Positions 1 through 54,507 of a stretch of 64,000 nt of DNA are shown piece after piece (within the stretch, counting starts at the first letter, position 1; every line of letters starts with the position of its first letter). The position numbers were made by a program, and so were the translations under genes. Source of the stretch: a virus. The stretch is taken from IMG/VR virus record IMGVR_UViG_3300027969_000087, positions 4,040-68,039 of that record; one strand, 5' to 3'. The notes under the pieces are model-generated. The model ran no database searches. It was not told the DNA's origin and saw only the letters and a program-made list of their open reading frames with translations.

Positions 1-2
1 TC

Positions 3-158
3 TTCAAGGTTGAAGACCTGCCAGAGTTCGTGACACCAAAGTGTGAGTTCAATGAGCACTCCATCAAAGAGATGGAGCGTATGGTTGAAGTGCTAAAGGC
101 TTGTGCTACAGCCACATTCAATAGCAAGATCCTTGGTAGCGTACAAGACTACCTCTAA
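3..158 (+). CDS. hypothetical protein, 3' end only (truncated by window edge)
   Basis: Open frame from base 3 (FKVEDLPEFVTPK...VQDYL) to TAA at 156-158, followed by the SD of the next gene. Confidence 0.6.
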   Translation, partial: FKVEDLPEFVTPKCEFNEHSIKEMERMVEVLKACATATFNSKILGSVQDYL

Positions 159-183
159 CCAACAACAAAAAGGAGAAGATAAC

Positions 184-573
184 ATGGGTATTCGCCCAGG
201 AGAACGACATCCAGCCCGCGCAATCAATACGGCCAACAACTGGCTAGGTGCTTTGCTGCTTGACAGCACAGCCTACCGTATCCCAAATGATCCGGACATG
301 CCAGACCTTGAGGGTGCAACACACAGTCACGTTATTGAGGGTGAGAACTTTGTAGTTATGGTTCTTACTCACTACAACGAGGACACCGAGACCTACACGC
401 TGTTGAGTGTAGACAAGTCAGAGTACAACGTAGAAGATAAAAGCGGTCTGACTACACTGCTAGCACGTGGTAAGACACGTGAACAACTAGACGAGCAGAA
501 CGCTCGTGAGGTTGAGCCTAGTGATGAACACATGGCGCAAGTCATCTCTATGTTCAAAGAACTAAACAGCTAG
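184..573 (+). CDS. hypothetical early protein
   Basis: ORF track 103..573; start moved to ATG 184 behind AAAGGAG. Confidence 0.75.
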   Translation: MGIRPGERHPARAINTANNWLGALLLDSTAYRIPNDPDMPDLEGATHSHVIEGENFVVMVLTHYNEDTETYTLLSVDKSEYNVEDKSGLTTLLARGKTREQLDEQNAREVEPSDEHMAQVISMFKELNS

Positions 574-582
574 GTGGTATGA

Positions 583-626
583 CTGTGGTGGCTGGCCGAC
601 ATAAACAACCGGCCAGCCACTCGCAG
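583..626 (+). terminator. GC-rich hairpin (terminator or processing stem)
   Basis: GTGGCTGGCCG 588-598 / CGGCCAGCCAC 610-620 is a perfect 11-bp stem, extendable by CTGTG/CGCAG; no U-tract. Confidence 0.55.
596..608 (+). repeat. CCRACRTAAACAA motif, copy 1
   Basis: CCGACATAAACAA, mostly in the loop of the 588-620 hairpin. Confidence 0.85.
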
Positions 627-650
627 CCTTACCATCATCGGGAAGGAACC

Positions 651-937
651 AGAGGTGAGAGGGATTATGCGATACGCCCTGCATAACATCATAGATTGTA
701 TGAACTGAAGAATGGTCATAGGCTCCAAGGTAAGCAATGTATCACACAGTCAATACGAAAGTATCCGGCTGTCCATGTTACTAGTCTTCGGATGGTGATG
801 AAACTAGTCTGAGGTGTTATTCGTAGAGTAATGTGCGTATTCCTGCGGGACATACAATCATAGGCTTTGCATCTCATCGTTGAAAGGCCAGGCTCATACA
901 ACTAGATACCATGCGTACCATAATCCCTCTCATTTCT
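651..937 (+). ncRNA. candidate large structured non-coding RNA (~290 nt)
   Basis: 19-bp closing helix 651-669/919-937 with two G-U pairs on the + strand, plus several internal stems; no credible ORF. Confidence 0.65.
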
Positions 938-955
938 ACACACTAAGGAGGCAGC

Positions 956-1045
956 ATGCCAAAGAAAGATAAAGAGTTGATCTTGAGTCTATCAAGAGCC
1001 AACTCTAAGCGTAAGACAACTACCCCACCAAAGAAAGGTAAGTAG
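956..1045 (+). CDS. small basic protein (29 aa)
   Basis: AAGGAGG SD; MPKKDKELILSLSRANSKRKTTTPPKKGK; abuts next ATG. Confidence 0.55.
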   Translation: MPKKDKELILSLSRANSKRKTTTPPKKGK

Positions 1046-1046
1046 T

Positions 1047-1541
1047 ATGAAAGAGATACACCCAGGTATCTATGAGGCGTCATTAGATGATGTCAAAGAT
1101 ACCAAGATTGTAGGTAACGAGAGTATGCACGACTATGGGGATGGTGTAGTAGTACAAGGAACTCTATCTTTGCTCAGTGAACTATCAAAGCACCCTGAGT
1201 TTAAATCTAGGGCTGTTGCTATTGCTGTGTTCAATGAGTCTAACAAAATGAGCAAAGTATTCTGGTACACAGGTCAACATATATTCCCCAAAGAGTATTT
1301 AGAGTTGGCTGTTGATGATAACAACATTGTAGTTGTACTTACCAACATGCCAAATCCAACTCTTACAGATGCAGAAAAGTTGACTGAGGTATTCTTACCT
1401 AAGAATGAGAACACCAACCTTGACTACCATGTGCTTGATTACATATGGTCAAACCATACGCATGGTGCATCACTCATGTGTGAAGACTTTAGCTGTTGCC
1501 CTAAAGAGGGTTACGAAATAGAACAGATAGTGAGTATCTAA
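1047..1541 (+). CDS. DUF4192-like protein (N-terminal half only)
   Basis: C-terminal SLMCEDFSCCPKEG resembles the W-S-x-x-C-x-D-x-x-CCP-x-EG motif I recall from actinobacterial DUF4192. Confidence 0.5.
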   Translation: MKEIHPGIYEASLDDVKDTKIVGNESMHDYGDGVVVQGTLSLLSELSKHPEFKSRAVAIAVFNESNKMSKVFWYTGQHIFPKEYLELAVDDNNIVVVLTNMPNPTLTDAEKLTEVFLPKNENTNLDYHVLDYIWSNHTHGASLMCEDFSCCPKEGYEIEQIVSI

Positions 1542-1822
1542 TGGCAAAGAAACTAAAGAAGAAGCAAGTCAAACGACTAATCAATGACTTAGTCAAGATG
1601 ATTGAGTTAGCTGACTTGGCTGAAGTAGAAGACGAAAGCATTGACTTGTCTGATTACCATCGTGGTTCAGCAGCAGGCTTACGTGCTGCACTATCCTTGA
1701 TCAGTGATAAGGATGTTCCAGCATACGCAATCATCAAGCGTGGTGATGCATTCCCATATCGTTTCGTACCATACACAGAGACTGGTGCTGCACCAGAACT
1801 CGCATTGGATTGGTGCGATTAG
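1541..1822 (+). CDS. hypothetical protein
   Basis: 93-aa ORF with TAATG translational coupling. Confidence 0.7.
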   Translation: MAKKLKKKQVKRLINDLVKMIELADLAEVEDESIDLSDYHRGSAAGLRAALSLISDKDVPAYAIIKRGDAFPYRFVPYTETGAAPELALDWCD

Positions 1823-1892
1823 CATTGCACGACGGCGCTGTACTTTATTTAGCTAAGTTGCGGTACTGATACGGTAGCCCTCCGTGTGATAA

Positions 1893-1951
1893 GCCCTGCA
1901 CGACGGAACGTAGACATGACTATTGTCAGTCTTGTTCCCTCCGTGTAGGGT
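1893..1951 (+). other. long imperfect hairpin directly 5' of the tRNA
   Basis: GCCCTGCACG/CGTGTAGGGT, GGAAC/GTTCC, AGAC/GTCT and TGAC-TATT-GTCA are nested. Confidence 0.6.
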
Positions 1952-1953
1952 GA

Positions 1954-2027
1954 GGGGCGTTAGCTCAGTTGGTCAGAGCAGCAGACTCATAATCTGCCAG
2001 TCGTGGGTTCAAGTCCCACACGCCCCA
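1954..2027 (+). tRNA. tRNA with CAT anticodon (Ile2 or elongator Met)
   Basis: Acceptor GGGGCGT/ACGCCCC, D arm AGCTCAGTTGGTCAGAGC, anticodon arm GCAGA-CTCATAA-TCTGC, T arm GTGGG-TTCAAGT-CCCAC; CCA not encoded; paired 1:72 so not an initiator. Confidence 0.95.
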
Positions 2028-2030
2028 CAA

Positions 2031-2053
2031 TGAACACATACTCCGTGTGTTCA
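2031..2053 (+). other. hairpin with ACTCC loop, 3' of the tRNA
   Basis: TGAACACAT-ACTCC-GTGTGTTCA. Confidence 0.6.
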
Positions 2054-2074
2054 GATATAAAAGGAGGTTCATCA

Positions 2075-2368
2075 ATGCGCATTCCAGACGAAATCAAATG
2101 GGATTCATTCGATGACGAAGAAACACCTAATAGCACGTACGTATCACCCTACGATCGAATTAGGGTGTGGTTTGAACAAGGTGGTAGTGAGGGGTACAAC
2201 CCATCATGGGCTAGACTAATGAACCCAGCAGTAGATGCATATGTAACTATGCGAGAAGTGTTGGGTGAGATAGCTGACCAAGGCCAAGAGATAGATGAGT
2301 GGCCAGAAGAATACGATGTAGCCCCCCTATTGCGTAGGGCACGCAGGCTCCAACGTAAACAACAATAG
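2075..2368 (+). CDS. hypothetical protein
   Basis: ORF 2003..2368 trimmed to ATG 2075 behind AAGGAGG (the upstream part overlaps the tRNA). Confidence 0.75.
   Translation: MRIPDEIKWDSFDDEETPNSTYVSPYDRIRVWFEQGGSEGYNPSWARLMNPAVDAYVTMREVLGEIADQGQEIDEWPEEYDVAPLLRRARRLQRKQQ
2350..2362 (+). repeat. CCRACRTAAACAA motif, copy 2
   Basis: CCAACGTAAACAA at the 3' end of the ORF. Confidence 0.85.
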
Positions 2369-2404
2369 CATTCCCTAGGTTAGCTGCGGCTCAACCGACA
2401 GGAT

Positions 2405-2555
2405 AATAACTAACAAGCAAACATGTATGTATTGTTGCGTGGAAGGCCTAGAGAACGTAATAAGTCCACCGAACCAGGCTTCGAAAGCTGTCATAGGGGT
2501 AAGGTGCGTTGAATCCTTCTCCATTTTCCGCTGCATTCGGGAGTAGTTAGTTATT
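2405..2555 (+). ncRNA. candidate structured RNA or cis-regulatory leader
   Basis: Perfect 10-bp closing helix AATAACTAAC/GTTAGTTATT enclosing further stems; followed at once by an intrinsic terminator. Confidence 0.5.
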
Positions 2556-2556
2556 T

Positions 2557-2602
2557 AGTCTCGCTGATGATTGCTGGGAAGCAAGCATAGCGGGACTTTT
2601 TT
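2557..2602 (+). terminator. intrinsic terminator
   Basis: AGTCTCGCT...TTGCT-GGGA-AGCAA...AGCGGGAC followed by TTTTTT. Confidence 0.75.
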
Positions 2603-2627
2603 GTATCTAATCAATCAAGGAGGAAGT

Positions 2628-2846
2628 ATGCAAGACCTCGATCGCACGCCACATGAACCTCCATCAGAGGAAGATATCAATGCTCTGGTGGAATTCTCTG
2701 CGGCGTTTATAGATCAAGCAGATTGCGATGGTAATCTGTTTGATGCAATTACGAACTGGTCTCCTGAACGTACGGTTGTCTATCAACAGGCATTCCTTAT
2801 GTTCAATGCGATCAGCAATCCAGAAGCCTTTGGCTTCCAAGAGTAA
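2628..2846 (+). CDS. hypothetical protein
   Basis: ORF trimmed to ATG 2628 behind AAGGAGG. Confidence 0.7.
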   Translation: MQDLDRTPHEPPSEEDINALVEFSAAFIDQADCDGNLFDAITNWSPERTVVYQQAFLMFNAISNPEAFGFQE

Positions 2847-2909
2847 GACAAAGTAACACCTCACACAAAGAGTGTGAGTCAACCCAGTATAGAGAGAAGG
2901 CAATACATT

Positions 2910-4355
2910 ATGGCAATTTCCGTTTTCACCGAGTCTTATGATTCTACGATGGACAACCACCGTCGACAAGTAATGCTCGTGCCGATTGACGGTACCGTTC
3001 GCGTCTACTCACGCGTCACCGATGGTGCTAAGGGTCCACACAACAAGTGGATCGAGACCAACGTTGACGACTTGGCTAATGAACTTCATGAGAATGAAGT
3101 ACTGACTGCTGAGCCAGTGGGTGTACAAGTTACAGTTGCTGACGAACGTTCTATCCGTGAGCTTGGTTACTCACCAGTTCTCGGTACCAAGTCAGTTGCT
3201 GCACACGGTAAAGCCGAAGCAGTGTCCGACGTAAACAACTCTGCCGCCCGTATCTTTGAACTCTACGAATCTATCATCAACAATGATGATTCATTGGTAG
3301 ATCTTATCATCGATCGTCGCAAGGAGTCGTCAGTGTTCACTCCACCAGTTGCCGCCCAGCCAGCATCTATCGTTGAGACAACGACAATCGCTGCTACTGA
3401 GCAGTTCGAAGCTCCCAAGCTTCAGGTGGCACTTGCATCTGTTCCACGCAAGGAACTTGACGAGCGTTACGTTCACCGCAACGTGTTGGGCGACACAGTC
3501 GAAGACTACAAAGCCTACGACGATGCTCGTGCCAATCACGTCAACGTGTTGATCTATGGTCCTACCGGTCCTGGTAAGACTACATCAATCGAAGCGTGGT
3601 GCGCTTCTCGTGGCCTACGCTTGGCTCAAGTATCAGGTAATGCTGCGCTTGAACCAGGTCACCTGTTCGGTCGTCTTGTACCAGACGGTAAGGGCGGCTT
3701 TGCATGGGTCGACGGTCCTGTCACGGACGTTGTTCGCAACGGCGGTGTTCTTAACCTTGATGAGGTCAACTTCATCTCACCTAAGATCTACACTGTTCTG
3801 TACCCATTGTTGACTAGCCAGCGTATGATTACGCTGCTTGATCATCACGGCGAAGTTATTGAGGCTCATCCAGACCTCACTATCTTTGCTACGATGAATC
3901 CTGATTACATTGGTACTCAGGGTCTCAACCATGCATTCAAGAACCGTTTCGATCTACAGATCCCTTGGGATTACGATGACAAGGTCGAGTCCAAGCTAGT
4001 CAAGTCCAAGAATCTATTGGTACTTGCCAAGCAGTTGCGTGCAGAAGCAGCCAAGGGTCTATACGAGACACCTATCTCAACCAACATGTTGATTGAGTTT
4101 GGTGGTTTCGTTGACCGTCTTGGTTACGAGTTCGCTGTCGAGAACTTCATTGCTCACTTTGCAAATGAAGAGCAGCCATCAGTTCGCCTCGTGTTCCAAA
4201 CTCACGAGCACAATCTGAAGCCTGACTTCGGCATCGAAGTTGTGGTCAAGGAAACAAAGGTTGAAGAGCCTTTCATCCCAGGTCAAGTGATCCCAGATCC
4301 AACACCTACCGCAACCAACAGCACAGTCACTAATCCAGTGATTGTCAATATCTAA
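2910..4355 (+). CDS. MoxR/CbbQ/CobS-type AAA+ ATPase
   Basis: Walker A GPTGPGKT, Walker B LNLDEVN, DGPV and ATMNP motifs, NRF arginine finger; start likely ATG 2910. Confidence 0.9.
   Translation: MAISVFTESYDSTMDNHRRQVMLVPIDGTVRVYSRVTDGAKGPHNKWIETNVDDLANELHENEVLTAEPVGVQVTVADERSIRELGYSPVLGTKSVAAHGKAEAVSDVNNSAARIFELYESIINNDDSLVDLIIDRRKESSVFTPPVAAQPASIVETTTIAATEQFEAPKLQVALASVPRKELDERYVHRNVLGDTVEDYKAYDDARANHVNVLIYGPTGPGKTTSIEAWCASRGLRLAQVSGNAALEPGHLFGRLVPDGKGGFAWVDGPVTDVVRNGGVLNLDEVNFISPKIYTVLYPLLTSQRMITLLDHHGEVIEAHPDLTIFATMNPDYIGTQGLNHAFKNRFDLQIPWDYDDKVESKLVKSKNLLVLAKQLRAEAAKGLYETPISTNMLIEFGGFVDRLGYEFAVENFIAHFANEEQPSVRLVFQTHEHNLKPDFGIEVVVKETKVEEPFIPGQVIPDPTPTATNSTVTNPVIVNI
3226..3238 (+). repeat. 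CCRACRTAAACAA motif, copy 3 (intragenic)
   Basis: CCGACGTAAACAA, encodes SDVN. Confidence 0.85.
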
Positions 4356-4391
4356 CTACATCCGTAGTTAGTAAAGAGAGGAGGCAATACC

Positions 4392-6341
4392 GTGTATCAA
4401 GATGAGCTAACTAGTCAATCTTATTACGGTTCATCAGTTCAGACTGATGAAGATGCACAAGAGCTAGCTGTTCGCTTAGGCTCGTTGTGCCGCGTGTATG
4501 AACAAACTGACCGTGTGCTTACTGGTGATCCAGTACAAGTTCACGTAGTCAATGGTGGTCCTGCACCGGCATGGTCTGACGGCTCAGACATTTACATCAA
4601 CAAGGAAGAGATCGAACAGTTTGATCTTGACGAGTTGGTGCAGATCAATGGCCTCAACTATCACGAGCTAGCCCACCATCTGTATACTCCCCGCAAGGGT
4701 ACTACACTGATGCAATGGGTCATGGAGCAGACAGCTATTGACCCGCTGTACATGATGGCAGTCAATGTTCTAGAAGATCAGCGCATTGAGACATTGTTCA
4801 CCGCACGTTATCCCGCTATCGTACCCTATCTAACCAAGACAGTGGTTCGCTGGTTGGCTGACAGCCCAGATAAAGTATCGTCGAACTACCTAGCAATTCG
4901 TGGTCGTCAATACCTACCTCTGGACTTACGTATTGGATTCCGTGACATGTTCTTCATGCCGGAATTAATACCAGTCATTGCAGATATCGTAGATGAGTAT
5001 CGTACGCTGCACTTTCCTAAGCAATACGCAGATGCACAACGGTTGATTCAGCGCTTCAAGGAGGAAGTGTTGGATAAACTAGAGCTGCCACCGGAGCAAG
5101 CACCAGACGGTGGTCCATCAGGCTGTGGTAAGCGCAACCCTGTTAGTAAGGGTAGGCCAGAAGCGGGCAAGGCTCAAGAGCGTGACTCAGAGCGTGCTAA
5201 GGGACAAGGTAATCCTGAACCGGAATACACACCTAAGCCACCTGAAGATAAGCAGCCAAGCAATGACAAGGGTGACAGTGACGACGAGTCCAACGTAAAC
5301 AACGTCGGTCGTGGTCCTGGCTCTCCTGGTAATGATGGTTCATACGTTCCACCAACTACAGTTGATGAAGCACTAGCCCTGCGTGAGACCGAACAGACCA
5401 CAAGTCCTGCCGGTGATGCGCATGCTCAAAGCTTGGGCGGTATCCCAGATAACATCTTGGATATCATACGTGACATCGAGCAGTCTATTTACAACCGCAA
5501 GGACGTACAGGCTGACGTCAAGACCAAGCAACGTGTCATCATTGGCGGTGACGGTAAGCATGACGATGGCATCAGGCGTGGCAAATACAGTACAGTAGCT
5601 GTCCCAAATGAAGTACTCGTTGTTGCTCGTCGCTTTGCCCGTGAGCTTGAGAAGCTCAAGCAAGACTGTGAGCCCAACTGGGAGCGTGAGCAATCAGCTG
5701 GGCGTCTCAACGTACAGCGCGTGATATCAGGGGCTGACCTTGATAAAGTGTTCGATCGTTGGGACGATGGAGTGGATGGCACAGACATTGAGACTGTCAT
5801 GTTAGTTGACAGGTCCGGGTCTATGGGCAGCAACAATAACGACATGCGTGCTTCTGAAGCATCATGGGTTATCAAGCGCTCAATGGAGCAGATCAAAGCT
5901 CCAGTGACTATCTATGCGTTTGACGGTCAAGCTGAGCTTGTTGCGTCTCGTGATGACAAGGTTGACAAGCTCAACCTACCATTCATCTATGGCAGTGGTG
6001 GTACTGATCCAAAGACTGCGCTTGTTGCTACCGAACGTCTGTTCAGGTCCAGCAAGCACAAGACCAAGATCATGTTCCTCGTCACTGACGGTGAGTTTAG
6101 TCACTACGAGAATGACGACATTGTCAAGCGTCTCAATGCTATGGGAGTTGTTACAGTTATGATTCTCATTGCTGACCCGTACAGCTTGCAATCAATCACT
6201 GATCGGTATGCTCAATACCATGAGGGTGAGGACATGTGGCACGAGTGCTCTATCCACGGCTCCGTGACCACCGCTGCTGACCTTATTCCGTTCGCTAAGC
6301 AGGTTGTGACAAGCACAATCAAGAAAGCACTCAATCGATAA
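4392..6341 (+). CDS. VWA-domain partner of the MoxR ATPase (CobT-like) with N-terminal HExxH region
   Basis: HELAH and LEDQRIE near the N terminus, acidic/Pro-rich linker, MIDAS DRSGSM, GGT, TDG. Confidence 0.88.
   Translation: MYQDELTSQSYYGSSVQTDEDAQELAVRLGSLCRVYEQTDRVLTGDPVQVHVVNGGPAPAWSDGSDIYINKEEIEQFDLDELVQINGLNYHELAHHLYTPRKGTTLMQWVMEQTAIDPLYMMAVNVLEDQRIETLFTARYPAIVPYLTKTVVRWLADSPDKVSSNYLAIRGRQYLPLDLRIGFRDMFFMPELIPVIADIVDEYRTLHFPKQYADAQRLIQRFKEEVLDKLELPPEQAPDGGPSGCGKRNPVSKGRPEAGKAQERDSERAKGQGNPEPEYTPKPPEDKQPSNDKGDSDDESNVNNVGRGPGSPGNDGSYVPPTTVDEALALRETEQTTSPAGDAHAQSLGGIPDNILDIIRDIEQSIYNRKDVQADVKTKQRVIIGGDGKHDDGIRRGKYSTVAVPNEVLVVARRFARELEKLKQDCEPNWEREQSAGRLNVQRVISGADLDKVFDRWDDGVDGTDIETVMLVDRSGSMGSNNNDMRASEASWVIKRSMEQIKAPVTIYAFDGQAELVASRDDKVDKLNLPFIYGSGGTDPKTALVATERLFRSSKHKTKIMFLVTDGEFSHYENDDIVKRLNAMGVVTVMILIADPYSLQSITDRYAQYHEGEDMWHECSIHGSVTTAADLIPFAKQVVTSTIKKALNR
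5290..5302 (+). repeat. CCRACRTAAACAA motif, copy 4 (intragenic)
   Basis: CCAACGTAAACAA, encodes SNVN in the disordered linker. Confidence 0.85.
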
Positions 6342-6347
6342 TACAAA

Positions 6348-6381
6348 TGTCGGGCGGGCGTGTAACAGCGCCCGTCCAACA
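6348..6381 (+). terminator. GC-rich hairpin after the VWA gene
   Basis: GGGCGGGCG-TGTAACAG-CGCCCGTCC. Confidence 0.5.
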
Positions 6382-6388
6382 TAAACAA
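6376..6388 (+). repeat. CCRACRTAAACAA motif, copy 5
   Basis: CCAACATAAACAA just before the SD of the 6404 gene. Confidence 0.85.
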
Positions 6389-6403
6389 GGACAAGGAGAC
6401 AAT

Positions 6404-8068: not shown

Positions 8069-8183
8069 GTTAGTTACGGGAATAACTATTCACCTTGGAG
8101 GGGTAATACATTAAGTCTAACTGACATAGTTTATGACTCTCACAAGACAACAGAAATACCTTATCGTTTGGCAAACAGGTTGC

Positions 8184-8196
8184 CCAACGTAAACAA
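8184..8196 (+). repeat. CCRACRTAAACAA motif, copy 6
   Basis: CCAACGTAAACAA overlaps the 3' arm of the 8165-8189 hairpin and abuts an SD. Confidence 0.85.
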
Positions 8197-8206
8197 AGGA
8201 GGCACA

Positions 8207-10566: not shown

Positions 10567-10603
10567 AATAGCCCCCGGCCTTATGGTCGGGGGCTATTTG
10601 TTT
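10567..10603. terminator. terminator at the convergent junction (probably bidirectional)
   Basis: AATAGCCCCCGGCC-TTAT-GGTCGGGGGCTATT with A/T-rich flanks, between opposing gene blocks. Confidence 0.8.
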
Positions 10604-10610
10604 ATGTTGG
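10598..10610 (-). repeat. CCRACRTAAACAA motif, copy 7 (inverted)
   Basis: TTGTTTATGTTGG on + equals CCAACATAAACAA on -. Confidence 0.85.
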
Positions 10611-10621
10611 GCTACTTGGGC

Positions 10622-12763: not shown

Positions 12764-14236
12764 TTATTCTTCTATTTGCTGAACAATGATCTCTGTTACA
12801 GCTTCTTCTGTCAAACCGTCGTTTGGAAGGTTCTTCAGGATAGCAGCTTTATCGCCAAAAAGGTTACTTAAAACGCCTCCGCCAGTCTGACGTTCTACCG
12901 TCATTCTCACAAACTCATTATTAGACTCAAGCTTCTTTAATTGTTCGACTATCTTGAATAGTCTATCAATTTCCTGACCGGTATTTGGGTCAGGGTATCC
13001 GCCGTTTAATTCCTCAGAAAACCTTGCAAATGCTACACGAGCGCCTTGCATCTCAATGATTGCGTTGAGTAGGGCACGGAGCTGATCCTTGGTCTTTACC
13101 TCTACTGGAAGACTAAATGCACAGGCACTCTGAGCCTTAAAAGCAGGGCAGTTTGCAGACACAAAACAGGTGTCACATTGCCTCAAAGATTGGTGGTTTG
13201 AGGAGAGCAATGGAGCGTCCCTGAGCACGTCTCTACCGGACGCATCTTTGTCCACTACCGTGCTATGGGTGACCCCAAATACGGGCAGTGTGGTGCGTTC
13301 TGAGGCCTCTCTAGGGGCCAATTCTTTCCGCACCTCTATAGCACTATTATCAGGGTTAAGACCCCCTGTTTCCGCGTTACCGGGGTCATCCATATCATCA
13401 CTGTTATCAGATAACAGCGGGCGATTCTTATCCAATGATTTCTCCAATTGTAAATATGACCAAATTGCGAGGCGAGTTACCTCATTTGGATCATCAGCCA
13501 TGATCTTATCAAAGTCCAAACCGGCAGTTTCAATGATCCTTTTATACCGTGGTCGGGCTTGGTCTTTCATCTTCTTGGGATAACGCACTAACTTTGTGCC
13601 GTCCCATACGATAGTCTCGCCTCTCATCATAGGAGATAGCCATGACAGGGTGCTAGCGGTGGTAAAAGGTACTTGGCGAAGGTTATCTGGCTTTGCGCAG
13701 GCAATTCCATGCAAGTCAAAGTCGTACTGGCTCTTTAGGGCTCTAACTCTAGAAGCTAGGGTTAGCTCTGTCTCTATAGCATTACCAGGGATAGCTACAT
13801 TATCGTAGGTCTTAGCCAGGTTTACCAACTCTGCTGGACCTTGTTCAGGGTCCCACATAGGCCAGAATAGGCCCTCTGCGGTATAGTTCCAAAACTCCTC
13901 GCGCTGTTTTTGTACCCAGTTAGCTCCTAGAGAAGCATGGGTAAACTCTGTAGCCCCAGCAATTCGCTCTTCATTGAGAGTAATCCACTCTTGGTACTCC
14001 TCGTAATAGCCTTCGAGCTCCATTACGGATAGGTTAGACTTAGCTGCGCTAGAGATACCGCTGTCAATAAAGATGCTGACGCTAGGGTCATACCTCTCTG
14101 ATAATAGATAATCCTTGGTCTTAGGTAGACCACGGCGCTTTAGGGCCCAGTAGTTAATGCCGATAGCTGTTACGCCAGCATTAGTTAGTAGGTTTCTATG
14201 GGACGGTACTTCTCCGCCCAAAAATACAAGGGTCAT
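12764..14236 (-). CDS. TGT/DpdA-like TIM-barrel protein fused to a Cys4 plus helical C-terminal domain
   Basis: IFIDSG, WPMW, LHGIA, ASTLSW recall transglycosylase-like barrels; acidic linker; CDTC-x4-C-x8-C. Confidence 0.5.
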   Translation of the reverse strand: MTLVFLGGEVPSHRNLLTNAGVTAIGINYWALKRRGLPKTKDYLLSERYDPSVSIFIDSGISSAAKSNLSVMELEGYYEEYQEWITLNEERIAGATEFTHASLGANWVQKQREEFWNYTAEGLFWPMWDPEQGPAELVNLAKTYDNVAIPGNAIETELTLASRVRALKSQYDFDLHGIACAKPDNLRQVPFTTASTLSWLSPMMRGETIVWDGTKLVRYPKKMKDQARPRYKRIIETAGLDFDKIMADDPNEVTRLAIWSYLQLEKSLDKNRPLLSDNSDDMDDPGNAETGGLNPDNSAIEVRKELAPREASERTTLPVFGVTHSTVVDKDASGRDVLRDAPLLSSNHQSLRQCDTCFVSANCPAFKAQSACAFSLPVEVKTKDQLRALLNAIIEMQGARVAFARFSEELNGGYPDPNTGQEIDRLFKIVEQLKKLESNNEFVRMTVERQTGGGVLSNLFGDKAAILKNLPNDGLTEEAVTEIIVQQIEE

Positions 14237-53156: not shown

Positions 53157-53455
53157 TAGTAGGTCCACCTATTCTTACGCACGTTGTCTGCTAGACCACG
53201 CATTTGGAGCCTCTGAACTTCTCGTGGCTCAACGACGGTTGGTGAGTAAGTATCGTACCAAATGGGGGTCGTAGCGCCATTAGCTGAGTTACCTGCGCTA
53301 CCTGCAAGCATGGCGCTTCTAGTAACAATTGTCGTATTAGTATCAGCAATAACCCTAATACGGTCACCAGAATCACGCGAGAATGTTAGAAGGTTAGCGA
53401 GTCTTCTAATTGCTTCTTCCGTACTTAGATTATCAAAAGCATTGCGTAGTGCCAT
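53156..53455 (-). CDS. hypothetical tail-associated protein
   Basis: TAATG coupling on both sides. Confidence 0.6.
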   Translation of the reverse strand: MALRNAFDNLSTEEAIRRLANLLTFSRDSGDRIRVIADTNTTIVTRSAMLAGSAGNSANGATTPIWYDTYSPTVVEPREVQRLQMRGLADNVRKNRWTY

Positions 53456-54507
53456 TATGTTCCGTCCTCGATCCAAAGAGTTAAATTATTGTCGGAAGTA
53501 TCCCACCAGAGGTACTTATCTCCTAATGATACACTAGGAGCAGTCGTTTGGATATACGTATCTATTGATGTTTTCCAATAAGTATCGTAGTCCGCACTAG
53601 AGTTTTTTACTAAATGTTGGTTTGCTACACCCCCAACAGGGACTCCATATCCTTGTGCCCCTGTCAAGCCCGTAGGCCCTGCAGGGCCAGTAGGTCCTGC
53701 CGGCCCAGTAGCGCCCGTAGCTCCGGTTGGACCAGTAGCTCCAGTAGGTCCAGCTTGGGTACTCATCACTTGTTGTATGTTTACTACAACACTTGGTGTA
53801 ACTGGGTACACAGGGCTTGTAGTATGGGCGGGCCAGTATTGTAGGTTTACCGATTGAGTAGAGGACCAGTAAAATTCAATGTAATCATTTGCTGCAAAAG
53901 TTGCTGTGTGATTAAATGAGGGTACTGCGTAATGGTTTTGATTAGAAAGATCGTATTGCCAATTAGTCTCTGGAACATTATTACCATTCTTTTTAATCCA
54001 AATATTAATTGCGGGGCTACCATTAGACGGCTGGTGCAACTGAGCCGAGAATTGAATATTATAGGTGCCCGCAACAGAAAAATTAATTCTTGAAGAAGTA
54101 GATAAAGATATGCCATTAGCTTCAGAGGTTTGGTCAATTGTAATTGCTTGAGCTGATGTTGAGCTAGCCTGTGTACTATTAGAATAGAAAGATCCATAAG
54201 ATCCTTGAGAAGAAGCTGCTGATCCAGCACCACTCATCCATAGAGGGTAGCTTGGATCCCCAGATTCAAAGATAACCCAAACTGTCTCGCCAATTTCAGG
54301 AACAGTAATAGAAGAGATTGATCCTGAAGATACGGCGGGATCTACTAAGTCAATAGTGTCTGAACCAGATACCTGAGGAACTATAAGAGATAGTCTCTTT
54401 TTATTCTCATAGTCAACATTGTTTTTTACTGTTGCTCTATAGGTGCCATAAAACCTGACCCTACCAAGAGGGTCCATATTATAATCTGTGTAGTCAGAGT
54501 AACTCAT
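53455..54507 (-). CDS. gp5/VgrG-type OB-fold protein fused to a jelly-roll-like domain and collagen repeats
   Basis: FYGTYRATV..N.D..RL.L.VPQV..VPEIGETVWVIFESGDPSYPLW; GTYNIQFSAQ; (GxT)n. Confidence 0.8.
   Translation of the reverse strand: MSYSDYTDYNMDPLGRVRFYGTYRATVKNNVDYENKKRLSLIVPQVSGSDTIDLVDPAVSSGSISSITVPEIGETVWVIFESGDPSYPLWMSGAGSAASSQGSYGSFYSNSTQASSTSAQAITIDQTSEANGISLSTSSRINFSVAGTYNIQFSAQLHQPSNGSPAINIWIKKNGNNVPETNWQYDLSNQNHYAVPSFNHTATFAANDYIEFYWSSTQSVNLQYWPAHTTSPVYPVTPSVVVNIQQVMSTQAGPTGATGPTGATGATGPAGPTGPAGPTGLTGAQGYGVPVGGVANQHLVKNSSADYDTYWKTSIDTYIQTTAPSVSLGDKYLWWDTSDNNLTLWIEDGT
53652..53753 (-). repeat. collagen-like Gly-X-Y repeat
   Basis: GPTGATGPTGATGATGPAGPTGPAGPTGLTGAQG. Confidence 0.85.

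What the first reader, a model, noticed from the sequence alone, without database searches (positions are those of the whole stretch)
651..937. ~290-nt highly structured candidate ncRNA with two mutually exclusive helices
Seen: AGAGGTGAGAGGGATTATG (651-669) pairs with CATAATCCCTCTCATTTCT (919-937), 19 bp with two G-U pairs that work only on the + strand, continued by TACGC/GCGTA. Inside are ACAGTC..ATAC-GAAA-GTAT..GGCTGT (GNRA loop), ACTAGT..ACTAGT, GTTATTC-GTA-GAGTAAT, TCC-TGCG-GGA and GGCTTT..AAAGGCC. Segment 694-703 can pair either with CATACAATC (851-859) or with TCATACAA-CTA (894-904), as in a switch. It lies 43 nt downstream of motif copy 1. I do not recognise a known Rfam family. Inference: a novel phage RNA, such as an RNA-polymerase decoy (6S/Ms1-like in size), a ribozyme or an anti-defence RNA.
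Basis: partly seen in the sequence, partly recalled or inferred. Interest (0 to 1): 0.8.

Follow-up and report, generated by a model that had tools for sequence, protein, structure and literature searches.

The report
Conserved structured RNA in lake phages
A stretch of about 290 bases between two genes of a freshwater phage folds into a conserved, branched RNA shape that matches no catalogued RNA family, and what it does is still unknown.

Summary
Bases 651-669 pair with 919-937 (19 bp, two G-U) and close a 287-nt stretch inside a 382-nt gap without a conserved ORF (574-955). The window is part of an IMG/VR myovirus record.

I found two further full-length versions. L003 is 94% identical. L005 is 67% identical and 301 nt long. 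A run-laying call showed parts of at least three more variants in freshwater metagenomes.

Across the three full sequences, 93% of the cells of a 78-pair model are paired, against 31-47% when partners are slid. Sixteen pairs change on both sides, against 1-2 when slid. G-U outnumbers A-C by 26 to 3, which points to the + strand.

The supported parts are an outer rod (P1-P1b-P2), hairpin P4, a long arm P5, and a 170-nt core whose spacing is kept to within 2 nt.

Not supported:
- The excess folding energy lies in the rod alone (core z = -0.07).

Rfam 15 has no match, and no reverse transcriptase is nearby.

My reading is a new family of phage structured RNA, probably a discrete early transcript product. 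The function is inferred, not shown.

The parts
588..620 (+). Conserved hairpin just after the stop of gene A. The stem is 588-598 x 610-620. The 11-nt loop carries copy 1 of the repeated motif YCCRACRTAAACAA. It is either a terminator or processing hairpin, or part of the RNA's 5' flank.
   Evidence: Sequence. The 77 nt between gene A's stop and P1 are 92% (L003) and 84% (L005) identical. L005 keeps a hairpin with a changed stem, GGCUGGUC/GACCAGCC. Against it: 612 G>A in three laid contigs, and 595 G>A in L003, break one pair each as listed.
630..643 (+). Possible -10-like hexamer TACCAT (630-635), and possible RNA start near 643. This is inference only.
   Evidence: Sequence. The only RNA-library contig that reaches the 5' side begins 8 nt before 651, but contigs cannot show a start. 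The promoter scan found nothing here. L005 has GACCAT.
651..669 (+). P1, 5' strand of the closing helix (purine-rich).
   Evidence: The first 16 pairs are standard in all three sequences, and 3 of them change on both sides. The listed changes 653 A>G, 654 G>A and 925 C>T in other metagenome variants all keep pairing.
671..677 (+). P1b, 5' strand (G671, UACGC 673-677). It pairs with 913-918.
   Evidence: In the model-fitted alignment 2 of its 6 pairs change on both sides and 1 is broken in L005 (helix 1). L005 has its own longer version, UUAUCAGUGC/GCACUUGAAUAA.
688..703 (+). P2a and P2, 5' strands (AUC, UAG, UUGUAUGA). They pair with 894-907 and end the outer rod.
   Evidence: P2 core 697-702 x 895-900, probability 0.86. 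L005 has a different helix at the same place, AAUGAU/AUCAUU (6 of 6 pairs, probability 0.72). The model-fitted alignment does not register it, giving 78.6% of cells paired.
703..872 (+). Conserved core. The blocks listed here are invariant in the three full sequences: AACUGAAGAA, AUAGGC, GUAAGCAA, UACUAGUCUUC, AUUCGU, AGUAAU, UUCCUG, GGGACA, AUAGGCU and UGCAU. Spacing is almost fixed.
   Evidence: The distances between 13 anchors differ by 0-2 nt between the window and L005.
705..711 (+). P3 candidate, 5' strand CUGAAGA. It pairs with UCUUCGG (785-791).
   Evidence: 7 of 7 standard pairs in all three sequences. There is one one-sided change, U-G to U-A, which is also seen as 790 G>A in a laid contig. 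Against it: thermodynamic pair probability is at most 0.06 and there is no double change.
710..714 (+). P3' alternative, GAAUG pairing with UAUUC (818-822). It overlaps P3, so the two either exclude each other or form a pseudoknot.
   Evidence: 5 of 5 pairs in all three sequences, with one double change (G-U to C-G). It is 7 bp in L005 with probability 0.89. Against it: 713 U>C in all four laid runs breaks a pair, unless an unlisted change compensates.
746..772 (+). P4 hairpin (ACAGUC/GGCUGU plus AUAC/GUAU). The loop is GAAA in the window.
   Evidence: Pair probability 0.97-0.98 in the window and L003. All 6 outer pairs are kept in all three sequences, with one double change (C-G to A-U) and one one-sided change (helix 4).
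785..791 (+). P3 candidate, 3' strand. It lies within the invariant block UACUAGUCUUC, which contains the palindrome ACUAGU (780-785).
813..878 (+). P5, a long irregular arm. Its helices are 813-816 x 875-878, 823-829 x 864-870, 831-834 x 858-861, 837-840 x 852-855 and 841-843 x 848-850. The apex loop is UGCG (UGAG in L003).
   Evidence: 22 pairs, 6 of them with changes on both sides, and 96-100% of cells paired (helices 6 and 7). The listed changes 826 G>A and 876 A>G keep pairing. Pair probability is 0.84-0.99 in L003 and L005 but only 0.23-0.43 in the window.
894..907 (+). P2 and P2a, 3' strands.
913..918 (+). P1b, 3' strand.
919..937 (+). P1, 3' strand (pyrimidine-rich).
944..1044 (+). Shine-Dalgarno-like AAGGAGG (944-950), followed by a 29-codon ORF for a lysine-rich basic peptide (956-1044). 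This is context, not part of the RNA.
   Evidence: The ORF is present in L003 and absent in L005, where gene B starts 32 nt after P1.

Best explanation
Window 651-937 encodes a genuine + strand structured RNA of about 290-300 nt. It belongs to a small, uncatalogued family carried by a few related freshwater myophages, whose host is possibly actinobacterial.

Anatomy. A long outer rod is formed by the two ends: P1 of 16-19 bp, then P1b, then P2. The sequence of the rod is free to vary as long as pairing is kept. The rod opens into a 170-nt core of almost fixed length. The core holds hairpin P4, a long irregular arm P5, and several invariant stretches for which no pairing is established. Two of the invariant stretches, CUGAAGA and UCUUCRG, are complementary to each other (P3). 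They compete or knot with a second conserved pairing (P3').

How it most likely works (inference). The RNA is transcribed with, or just upstream of, the early + strand genes. It is either started about 8 nt before P1 or cut out at its long double-stranded rod. It then persists as a discrete, stable RNA. Its invariant core is a binding surface that acts in trans on a protein, or on copies of itself, during host take-over.

Shown: the conserved structure, the strand, the non-coding nature and the absence from Rfam. Inferred: the transcript ends, the processing, the trans action and the partner.

I put about 0.8 on 'real conserved structured RNA' and about 0.35-0.4 on the discrete, trans-acting reading. 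The confidence figure below is for the whole statement.
For: Non-coding:
- The 382-nt gap has 4 or more stops in every frame in all three versions, and no frame is kept.
- Spacing differences between anchors are 1-2 nt, so they are not multiples of 3.

Homologues:
- L003 and L004 are identical to each other in this region. The RNA is 94.1% identical to the window's, while gene B next to it is 73.6% identical in DNA and 67% in protein.
- L005 and L002 are identical to each other. The RNA is 67.4% identical to the window's.

Structure:
- On the MAFFT alignment, 51 pairs give 96.7% of cells paired, against 33-52% when partners are slid. Nine pairs change on both sides, against 0-1 when slid and 3.3 +/- 1.4 when shuffled (0 of 500 shuffles reach it).
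- On the model-fitted alignment, 78 pairs give 93.2% paired, against 31-47% when slid. Sixteen pairs change on both sides, against 1-2 when slid (0 of 500 shuffles reach it).

Strand: 26 G-U cells against 3 A-C cells, and 218 of 234 cells are standard pairs on the + strand against 195 on the - strand.

Other natural variants. Four of the 21 listed runs were laid.
- All 8 listed substitutions that fall in P1, P3 or P5 keep pairing.
- Seven of the 8 pass through G-U, and these are neutral only on the + strand.
- Most of the other listed changes fall in unpaired stretches.
- One divergent contig keeps only 514-643 and 730-801, with 80 unlike letters in place of 644-729. That fits a variable rod and a conserved core.

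Folding: z = -3.59 for the window and -3.60 for L005.

No known family: Rfam 15 gives nothing at gathering scores or at E up to 10.

Single copy: there is one copy per record, and no paralogue in 178 kb of held DNA.

Precedent: phage-encoded RNAs of unknown function are on record. They include abundant stable early RNAs in L5/D29 (PMC5712189, passages read) and ROOL/GOLLD near tRNA islands (10.1101/2024.12.08.627333, passages read).
Against: - There are only three full-length sequences, and two of them are 94% alike. In effect the covariation is one comparison, so it cannot reach R-scape-type significance.
- The model-fitted alignment leans towards the structure.
- The core alone folds no better than shuffles (z = -0.07 and -0.75).
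- Much of the core's interior is unresolved. P3 has pair probability of at most 0.06. P3' is broken by 713 U>C in all four laid runs, as far as the table shows.
- The table is incomplete: 11 substitutions and 2 indels are not shown.
- No promoter or terminator was found by the scan. Nothing terminator-like follows P1, so a free-standing transcript is not shown.
- The one RNA-library run gave two contigs of 151 nt at depth about 4.
- The element always sits just upstream of gene B (3 of 3 full versions). That fits a cis-acting leader equally well.
Confidence: 0.4

Rival explanations
1. It is a cis-acting leader of the early operon. The folded RNA stays attached to the mRNA of gene B (and of the 29-codon ORF). 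It controls that mRNA's stability, processing, read-through of downstream hairpins, or translation.
For: It is on the same strand as the flanking genes and directly upstream of gene B in 3 of 3 full versions. P1 ends 6 nt before a Shine-Dalgarno-like AAGGAGG in the window. There is no terminator between it and the next ORF. A 16-19-bp helix is a plausible substrate for a double-strand-specific RNase, which would set mRNA ends (established knowledge of RNase III processing of phage early RNAs, recalled).
Against: The distance and sequence between P1 and the next start codon are not kept: 18 nt to the 29-codon ORF in the window, and 32 nt straight to gene B in L005. This flank is 27% identical. 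P1 does not cover the ribosome-binding site. A 170-nt invariant core is far more than a stabilising or processing hairpin needs. Gene B diverges fast (59-74% DNA identity) while the core stays fixed.
Confidence: 0.3
2. It is a riboswitch-type sensor. The core binds a small ligand, and the rod or the P3/P3' choice transmits the signal to downstream expression.
For: It has invariant stretches with no established pairing, flanked by covarying helices. It lies in a 5' position relative to genes. It has two conserved, mutually exclusive pairings that share GAAGA (P3 and P3').
Against: No Rfam riboswitch family matches. P1 is 16-19 bp and has pair probability 0.97-0.98, which is too stable to be ligand-gated. 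There is no terminator, and no pairing that covers the ribosome-binding site. The downstream genes have no recognisable metabolic function.
Confidence: 0.05
3. It is a ribozyme, either self-processing or acting on another RNA such as the phage tRNA precursors.
For: The core is of fixed length with invariant nucleotides and a possible pseudoknot. It is phage-encoded and lies about 1 kb upstream of a tRNA-Met gene.
Against: No match to any ribozyme model in Rfam 15 at E up to 10. CUGAAGA resembles the hammerhead core only by eye, and the other hammerhead elements are not in register (my reading). No split gene flanks it, so it is not an intron.
Confidence: 0.07
4. It is a DNA-level element, not an RNA. 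It could be a miniature inverted-repeat transposable element whose terminal inverted repeats co-vary because one transposase reads both. Or it could be a single-strand origin or packaging signal.
For: It has 19-bp terminal inverted repeats around a roughly 250-bp non-coding body. In L005 the reverse strand folds as well as the forward strand. The element lies within about 3-5 kb of a contig end in all three records.
Against: - There is one copy per record and no paralogue.
- The position between gene A and gene B is the same in every version, and no empty site is seen.
- No direct repeat flanks the ends (my reading).
- All five independent imperfections in P1 are G-U on the + strand and none is A-C.
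- Internal helices P4 and P5 covary, and G-U outnumbers A-C by 26 to 3.
Confidence: 0.05
5. It is a chance inverted repeat in a non-functional spacer.
For: The core folds no better than shuffles.
Against: Ten blocks are invariant and spacing is kept to within 2 nt at 67% overall identity. There are 16 double changes against 1-2 in slid controls. The RNA is more conserved than the gene B beside it.
Confidence: 0.03

Closest known systems
ROOL and GOLLD, large 'ornate' RNAs of phages and prophages
   Same: Phage-encoded, complex multi-helix folds with invariant junction nucleotides, often near tRNA genes, no known protein partner or function (10.1101/2024.12.08.627333, passages read). The element here lies about 1 kb upstream of a phage tRNA-Met gene.
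   Different: Their Rfam models do not match. This RNA is about 290-300 nt. GOLLD members often exceed 800 nt (same paper), and ROOL is about 580 nt (recalled). Self-assembly into cages is shown for them and untested here.
Abundant stable early non-coding RNAs at the right genome end of mycobacteriophages L5, D29 and StarStuff
   Same: These are early non-coding transcripts of actinobacteriophages, with no ORF over about 30 codons, near a genome end, function unknown, toxic to the host when expressed (PMC5712189, passages read). The element here lies in a + strand block of small genes that I take to be early, 3-5 kb from a contig end.
   Different: No sequence similarity. blastn of 560-960 against 50,697 phage records found nothing. 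Abundance and stability are shown for those RNAs and not here. No conserved secondary structure is described in the passages I read.
   Same: Size is of the order of Ms1 (about 300 nt, recalled), and the 5' and 3' ends pair into a long helix.
   Different: Those RNAs are rods with a central open-promoter-like bubble (recalled). Here the rod opens into a branched 170-nt core. No Rfam match. Polymerase binding is untested.
Retron msr-msd non-coding RNA
   Same: The 5' and 3' ends are complementary (a1/a2-like), the length is about 150-300 nt, and there are internal hairpins (recalled).
   Different: No reverse transcriptase (PF00078) was found in the 68-kb record, which is 70% complete. The genes next to it, of 29, 164 and 93 codons, have no Pfam or PHROG match.
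phi29 packaging RNA (pRNA)
   Same: A phage-encoded structured RNA closed by a 5'/3' helix and encoded near a genome end (recalled).
   Different: No Rfam match. pRNA is shorter, at 120-174 nt, and belongs to small podoviruses with protein-primed replication (recalled). This phage is a myovirus of 68 kb or more, with a tail sheath.

Membership tests
Any Rfam 15 family (4227 models) | The covariance model score reaches the family's gathering score. | tested here: not met
   Over the whole window only two tRNAs reach it. For 500-1100 and for L005 3250-3720 at E up to 10, the only hits are weak ones of 22 bits or less, to unrelated miRNA, snoRNA or sRNA models and far below their gathering scores. 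In the window these hits mostly lie on the upstream hairpin.
6S RNA / Ms1 | A long irregular rod with a large central bubble that mimics an open promoter. | tested here: not met
   The consensus structure is a rod (P1-P2) that opens into a multi-branched core with P4 and P5.
6S RNA / Ms1 | Binds RNA polymerase (holoenzyme or core). | not testable with these tools
   This needs pull-down or gel-shift experiments.
Retron ncRNA | An adjacent reverse transcriptase gene. | tested here: not met
   PF00078 gave 0 matches in the 68,039-base record, while the control genomes gave matches. The record is estimated to be 70% complete.
Retron ncRNA | Terminal a1/a2 inverted repeats. | tested here: met
   P1, 16-19 bp. 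This feature alone is not diagnostic.
Group I intron | It interrupts a gene whose exons join into one reading frame, and it has the P3-P7-P9 core. | tested here: not met
   Gene A ends in a stop in all versions. The downstream 29-codon ORF is absent in L005. There is no match to the intron model at E up to 10.
Riboswitch (generic) | An expression platform: a terminator, or a helix covering the ribosome-binding site, that competes with the aptamer. | tested here: not met
   No terminator-like site lies near 937-955. P1 ends before the Shine-Dalgarno-like sequence, and the spacer is not conserved.
Riboswitch (generic) | Ligand binding by the conserved core. | not testable with these tools
   This needs in-line probing or ITC.
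MITE (miniature inverted-repeat element) | Multiple copies, target-site duplications, and empty sites in relatives. | tested here: not met
   There is a single copy in the window, in G001 and in all held loci. The locus is the same in every version. No flanking direct repeat was seen.
ROOL / GOLLD class (large ornate phage RNAs) | Match to their covariance models. | tested here: not met
ROOL / GOLLD class (large ornate phage RNAs) | Homo-oligomeric assembly. | not testable with these tools
   This needs native gels, SEC-MALS or cryo-EM. The invariant palindrome ACUAGU (780-785) is only a lead.

The most novel reading that the evidence does not exclude
This is the founding member of a new class of mid-sized 'ornate' phage RNAs. 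It has a 170-nt core of fixed geometry with a P3/P3' pseudoknot. An invariant palindrome (ACUAGU) lets copies kiss. The core is presented on a sequence-free rod. The RNA would act on its own during host take-over, either as a self-assembling particle or as a catalyst, as ROOL and GOLLD are now thought to do. It is carried by uncultured freshwater myophages.
Probability: 0.2. Interest if true: 0.8.

Novelty: new variant of a known kind. Interest (0 to 1): 0.55.

Why it matters
Complex-folded RNAs of this size with invariant cores are rare. Historically they have turned out to be ribozymes, riboswitches, or scaffolds with unusual architectures. ROOL and GOLLD stayed orphans for years and then proved to be RNA-only cages.

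A new, compact example from abundant but uncultured lake phages would add a tractable object of 290 nt for structure work. It would also give a handle on what early phage non-coding RNAs do to their hosts.

The present evidence shows a real conserved fold. The family is small, and nothing yet shows its function.

Tried and rejected
Searches for more homologues that found none:
- blastn of 560-960 against 50,697 phage records gave no match.
- blastn of 1-6000 gave only tRNA and AAA-ATPase pieces.
- Single-protein locus searches with gene A and gene B in IMG/VR confirmed no relative.
- Five DNA-pattern scans of IMG/VR. One found nothing. Three found only the record already known. The loosest gave 13 further loci. 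All 13 are chance by nhmmer (best E 0.61), and the covariance model scored only one 48-nt stretch among them, at E 0.029.
- Two scans of 185,579 species genomes gave nothing.

- L005's record is not held.

Sequencing runs:
- Only 4 of the 21 listed runs were laid. The 17 others, many of them with small word shares, are not evidence for anything.
- In the RNA library X15, nothing covers 400-642 or 926-1100, while two 151-nt contigs cover about 643-925. The run is a single study and DNA carry-over was not excluded.

Neighbouring proteins:
- Gene A has no Pfam or PHROG match. It has 14 relatives among 1.8 billion representatives. Several of these are giant cadherin or ankyrin repeat proteins, probably spurious.
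- The gene A model has pLDDT 80.2, but there is no fold match. Foldseek's best E-value is 0.17, and VIA-align's best Z is 4.4, below the noise level the tool states. The weak Pur-alpha and Ugi rows are not evidence.
- The gene B model has pLDDT 53.8 and was not searched. The protein atlas gave no usable hit.

Ideas considered and dropped:
- T-box: UGGU follows P3, but no model hit.
- Hammerhead: CUGAAGA is present, but there is no register and no hit.
- Tetraloop-receptor pair GAAA with AAUGG/CCAAGG: present only in the window lineage.
- Mimicry of the anti-Shine-Dalgarno sequence by P1: not kept in L005.
- A decoy for the repeated motif (724-738 resembles it at 12 of 15 positions): only GUAA.CAA is shared in L005.

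Literature:
- Searches found no description of this RNA. They were word searches and cannot find a sequence.
- Fremin et al. 2023 (PMC10690425, abstract and outline seen) predicted 10,006 candidate structured RNAs from IMG/VR-type data.
Full report
**Where it lies.** The window is bases 4040-68039 of a 68,039-base IMG/VR virus record, classed as linear and estimated 70% complete. The phage is a myovirus: it has a tail sheath and a tape-measure protein. It also carries ribonucleotide reductase, a queuine tRNA-ribosyltransferase-like enzyme, a family A DNA polymerase and a DnaB-like helicase. G+C is about 45%. Its nearest cultured relatives by tail sheath are Streptomyces myophages at 35% identity, so an actinobacterial host is plausible but not shown.

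The finding sits in a 382-nt gap (574-955) in a + strand block of small genes of unknown function. Upstream is gene A (184-573, 129 codons). Downstream are a 29-codon ORF (956-1044) and gene B (1047-1541, 164 codons). A tRNA-Met gene follows at 1954-2028.

**The observation.** The 287-nt stretch folds to -91.7 kcal/mol with z = -3.59, and 0 of 200 shuffles fold as well. The opposite strand gives z = -2.03.

The excess, however, lies in the outer helices alone. The inner 191 nt (703-893) give z = -0.07, and the corresponding part of the relative L005 gives z = -0.75. In L005 the reverse strand folds as well as the forward one (z = -4.18 against -3.60). Energy therefore shows a long inverted repeat. 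It does not show a structured core, and it does not give the strand.

**Relatives.**
- The phage database has nothing similar.
- Gene B has only three relatives among 5.8 billion protein clusters. An alignment of them led to four loci.
- These loci are two distinct sequences. L003 and L004 are identical in the region, and L005 and L002 are identical.
- All keep the order gene A, hairpin, non-coding stretch, gene B.
- Against the window, the RNA is 94.1% identical in L003 and 67.4% in L005. Gene A is 94.6% and 90.5% identical. Gene B is 73.6% and 59.1% identical.
- No frame is open or conserved across the gap.

**Structure.** In L005 the closing helix is rebuilt from different letters: AGAGAGAAGAGAGAUU pairs with AAUCUCUCUUCUCUCU. 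The first 16 pairs are standard in all three sequences, and three of them change on both sides.

Thirteen conserved anchors between 703 and 872 keep their spacing to within 0-2 nt between the window and L005. So there is a core of nearly fixed length, carried on a rod whose sequence is free to vary.

Within the core:
- Hairpin P4 (746-772) keeps all six outer pairs, with one double change.
- The long arm P5 (813-878) has 22 pairs, six of them with double changes.

The counts are:

| Alignment | Pairs | Cells paired | Cells paired, partners slid | Pairs with double change | Same, slid | Same, shuffled |
|---|---|---|---|---|---|---|
| MAFFT | 51 | 96.7% | 33-52% | 9 | 0-1 | 3.3 +/- 1.4 (0 of 500 reach it) |
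| Model R1, fitted | 78 | 93.2% | 31-47% | 16 | 1-2 | 5.6 +/- 1.8 (0 of 500 reach it) |

The second count leans towards the structure, because the alignment was fitted to it. With three sequences, two of them close, all of this is in effect one comparison. It is good evidence but not a statistical proof.

**Strand.** In the 78-pair model, 26 cells are G-U and 3 are A-C. On the + strand 218 of 234 cells are standard pairs, against 195 on the - strand. The + strand is also the strand of all the neighbouring genes.

**More natural variants.** A word index listed 21 runs from 14 studies that hold part of the stretch, nearly all labelled freshwater or lake. I laid four of them.
- The contigs show at least three further variants.
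- All eight listed substitutions that fall in P1, P3 or P5 keep pairing: A-U to G-U, G-U to A-U twice, G-C to G-U, U-G to U-A, and U-A to U-G.
- Seven of the eight pass through G-U, and these are neutral only on the + strand.
- One contig (X2, record 4) is about 95% identical over 574-1100: 23 letters and 4 gaps differ in 527. Just upstream of 574 it runs into unlike sequence that translates to ...ELSDTLTHP-stop. That is the C-terminus of P0006, a relative of gene A with 54% identity. This is a mosaic joint exactly at the stop codon of gene A.
- Another contig (X2, record 3) keeps 514-643 and 730-801 but has 80 unlike letters in place of 644-729. Again the rod differs and the core is kept.
- The table is incomplete: 11 substitutions and 2 indels are not shown.

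**What is not supported.**
The second partner of 694-702, at 851-859, makes 9 pairs in the window and 7 of 9 in L003. I saw no counterpart in L005. L005 forms its own P2 from AAUGAU and AUCAUU.
- The ACTAGT hairpin keeps 3 of 6 pairs in L005.
- The GTTATTC/GAGTAAT hairpin keeps 3 of 7 pairs in L005. It also conflicts with the covarying P5 helix GUAGAGU/GCUUUGC.
- GGCTTT/AAAGGCC conflicts with the same P5 helix, and I saw no counterpart in L005.
- All of these have pair probabilities of 0.09 or less even in the window.
- The GNRA loop is not kept.

**What stays open inside the core.** CUGAAGA (705-711) and UCUUCRG (785-791) are both invariant and are complementary to each other (P3: 7 of 7 pairs, one one-sided change). 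Their predicted probability is at most 0.06. GAAUG (710-714) with UAUUC (818-822) (P3') overlaps P3. It has one double change and is strong in L005 (7 bp, probability 0.89). It is hit by 713 U>C in all four laid runs. The two either exclude each other or form a pseudoknot. More sequences are needed to decide.

**Comparison with known families.**
- Rfam 15 has no match, at gathering scores or at E up to 10, for the window or for L005.
- The shape is not that of 6S or Ms1.
- No reverse transcriptase is in the record, so it is not a retron RNA.
- No split gene flanks it, so it is not an intron.
- There is no terminator and no helix covering the ribosome-binding site, and P1 is far too stable to be gated. 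A riboswitch is therefore unlikely.
- A miniature transposon would explain co-varying terminal repeats. It would not explain the single copy, the fixed locus, the internal covariation, or the fact that all five imperfections in P1 are G-U rather than A-C.
- In kind, the closest things are the orphan structured RNAs of phages. ROOL and GOLLD are encoded in phages and prophages near tRNA islands and are now known to form RNA-only cages (10.1101/2024.12.08.627333, passages read). The abundant stable early non-coding RNAs of mycobacteriophages L5 and D29 are another example (PMC5712189, passages read).

**How it most likely works.**
- Shown: a conserved, + strand, non-coding fold of a new family.
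- Inferred: it is made early, with or just upstream of the neighbouring genes, and persists as a discrete RNA whose invariant core binds a partner or itself.
- The hints for discreteness are weak. There is a -10-like TACCAT at 630-635. In the one RNA library, the contigs cover only about 643-925. That is one study at depth about 4, and DNA carry-over was not excluded.
- A cis-acting leader of gene B is nearly as likely.
- I could not link it to its neighbours. Gene A gave a confident model but no fold match, and gene B gave a poor model.

**Verdict.** This is a real and apparently uncatalogued structured phage RNA, with a small known family and no established function. The switch and several inner hairpins do not. 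I score interest at 0.55. The score would rise sharply if further homologues confirm a pseudoknotted core, or if the RNA proves to be abundant, self-assembling or catalytic.

Noticed in passing
window 595-609, 2349-2363, 3225-3239, 5289-5303, 6375-6389, 8183-8197 (+) and 10597-10611 (-): A 15-nt motif, YCCRACRTAAACAA(C), recurs in the block I take to be early. The 11-nt core ACRTAAACAAC occurs 4 times exactly, where 0.1 is expected. The 15-nt pattern has 13 matches at up to 3 mismatches, against 4.75 +/- 2.19 expected. Copy 1 is the loop of the hairpin upstream of the RNA. Three copies sit between a hairpin and the next ribosome-binding site or terminator. Three lie inside or at the end of coding sequence. 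L005 has it too. Its function is unknown.
   Followed up: partly
window 2369-2627: A second gap of about 260 nt without an ORF, right after motif copy 2. It ends in a hairpin followed by a run of T (about 2570-2606). Folding is no better than shuffles (z = -0.82). No Rfam hit at gathering scores.
   Followed up: partly
window 1823-1953: The non-coding stretch before tRNA-Met has GCACGACGG twice and CCCTCCGTGT twice. These are partly complementary to each other. Another perfect 7-bp hairpin (GAACACA...TGTGTTC) follows the tRNA.
   Followed up: no
window 184-573 (gene A): A small protein family with invariant T62, Y64, Y71 and R95-G96-K97, nearly invariant His47, His49 and His63, and an N-terminal ERHP motif kept in most members. 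The model is confident (pLDDT 80) with four strands followed by helices, but no solved fold matches. It is always found just upstream of the hairpin and the RNA.
   Followed up: partly
window 1047-1541 (gene B): A family of only four known members, with invariant KVFWY.G, FPKEYLE.AVD and a C-terminal C..D..CC.KEG. This may be a metal site. No Pfam or PHROG match.
   Followed up: partly
window 956-1044: A 29-codon ORF for a very basic, lysine-rich peptide (MPKKDKE...PPKKGK), with a strong Shine-Dalgarno-like sequence directly after the RNA. It is kept in L003 and absent in L005. It could be an RNA-binding peptide.
   Followed up: no
window 53651-53754: Tandem 9-nt periodic repeats (CCNGTAGGNCC-like). 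They lie inside a 350-codon - strand ORF (53455-54507). I read them as collagen-like Gly-X-Y repeats of a fibre protein.
   Followed up: no
window 12764-14236 (-) and 2874-6341 (+): A homologue of queuine tRNA-ribosyltransferase (phrog_887, E = 5e-47). In phages this usually marks 7-deazaguanine modification of DNA (recalled). Also an AAA_5 ATPase plus von Willebrand A pair of the CobS/CobT type.
   Followed up: no
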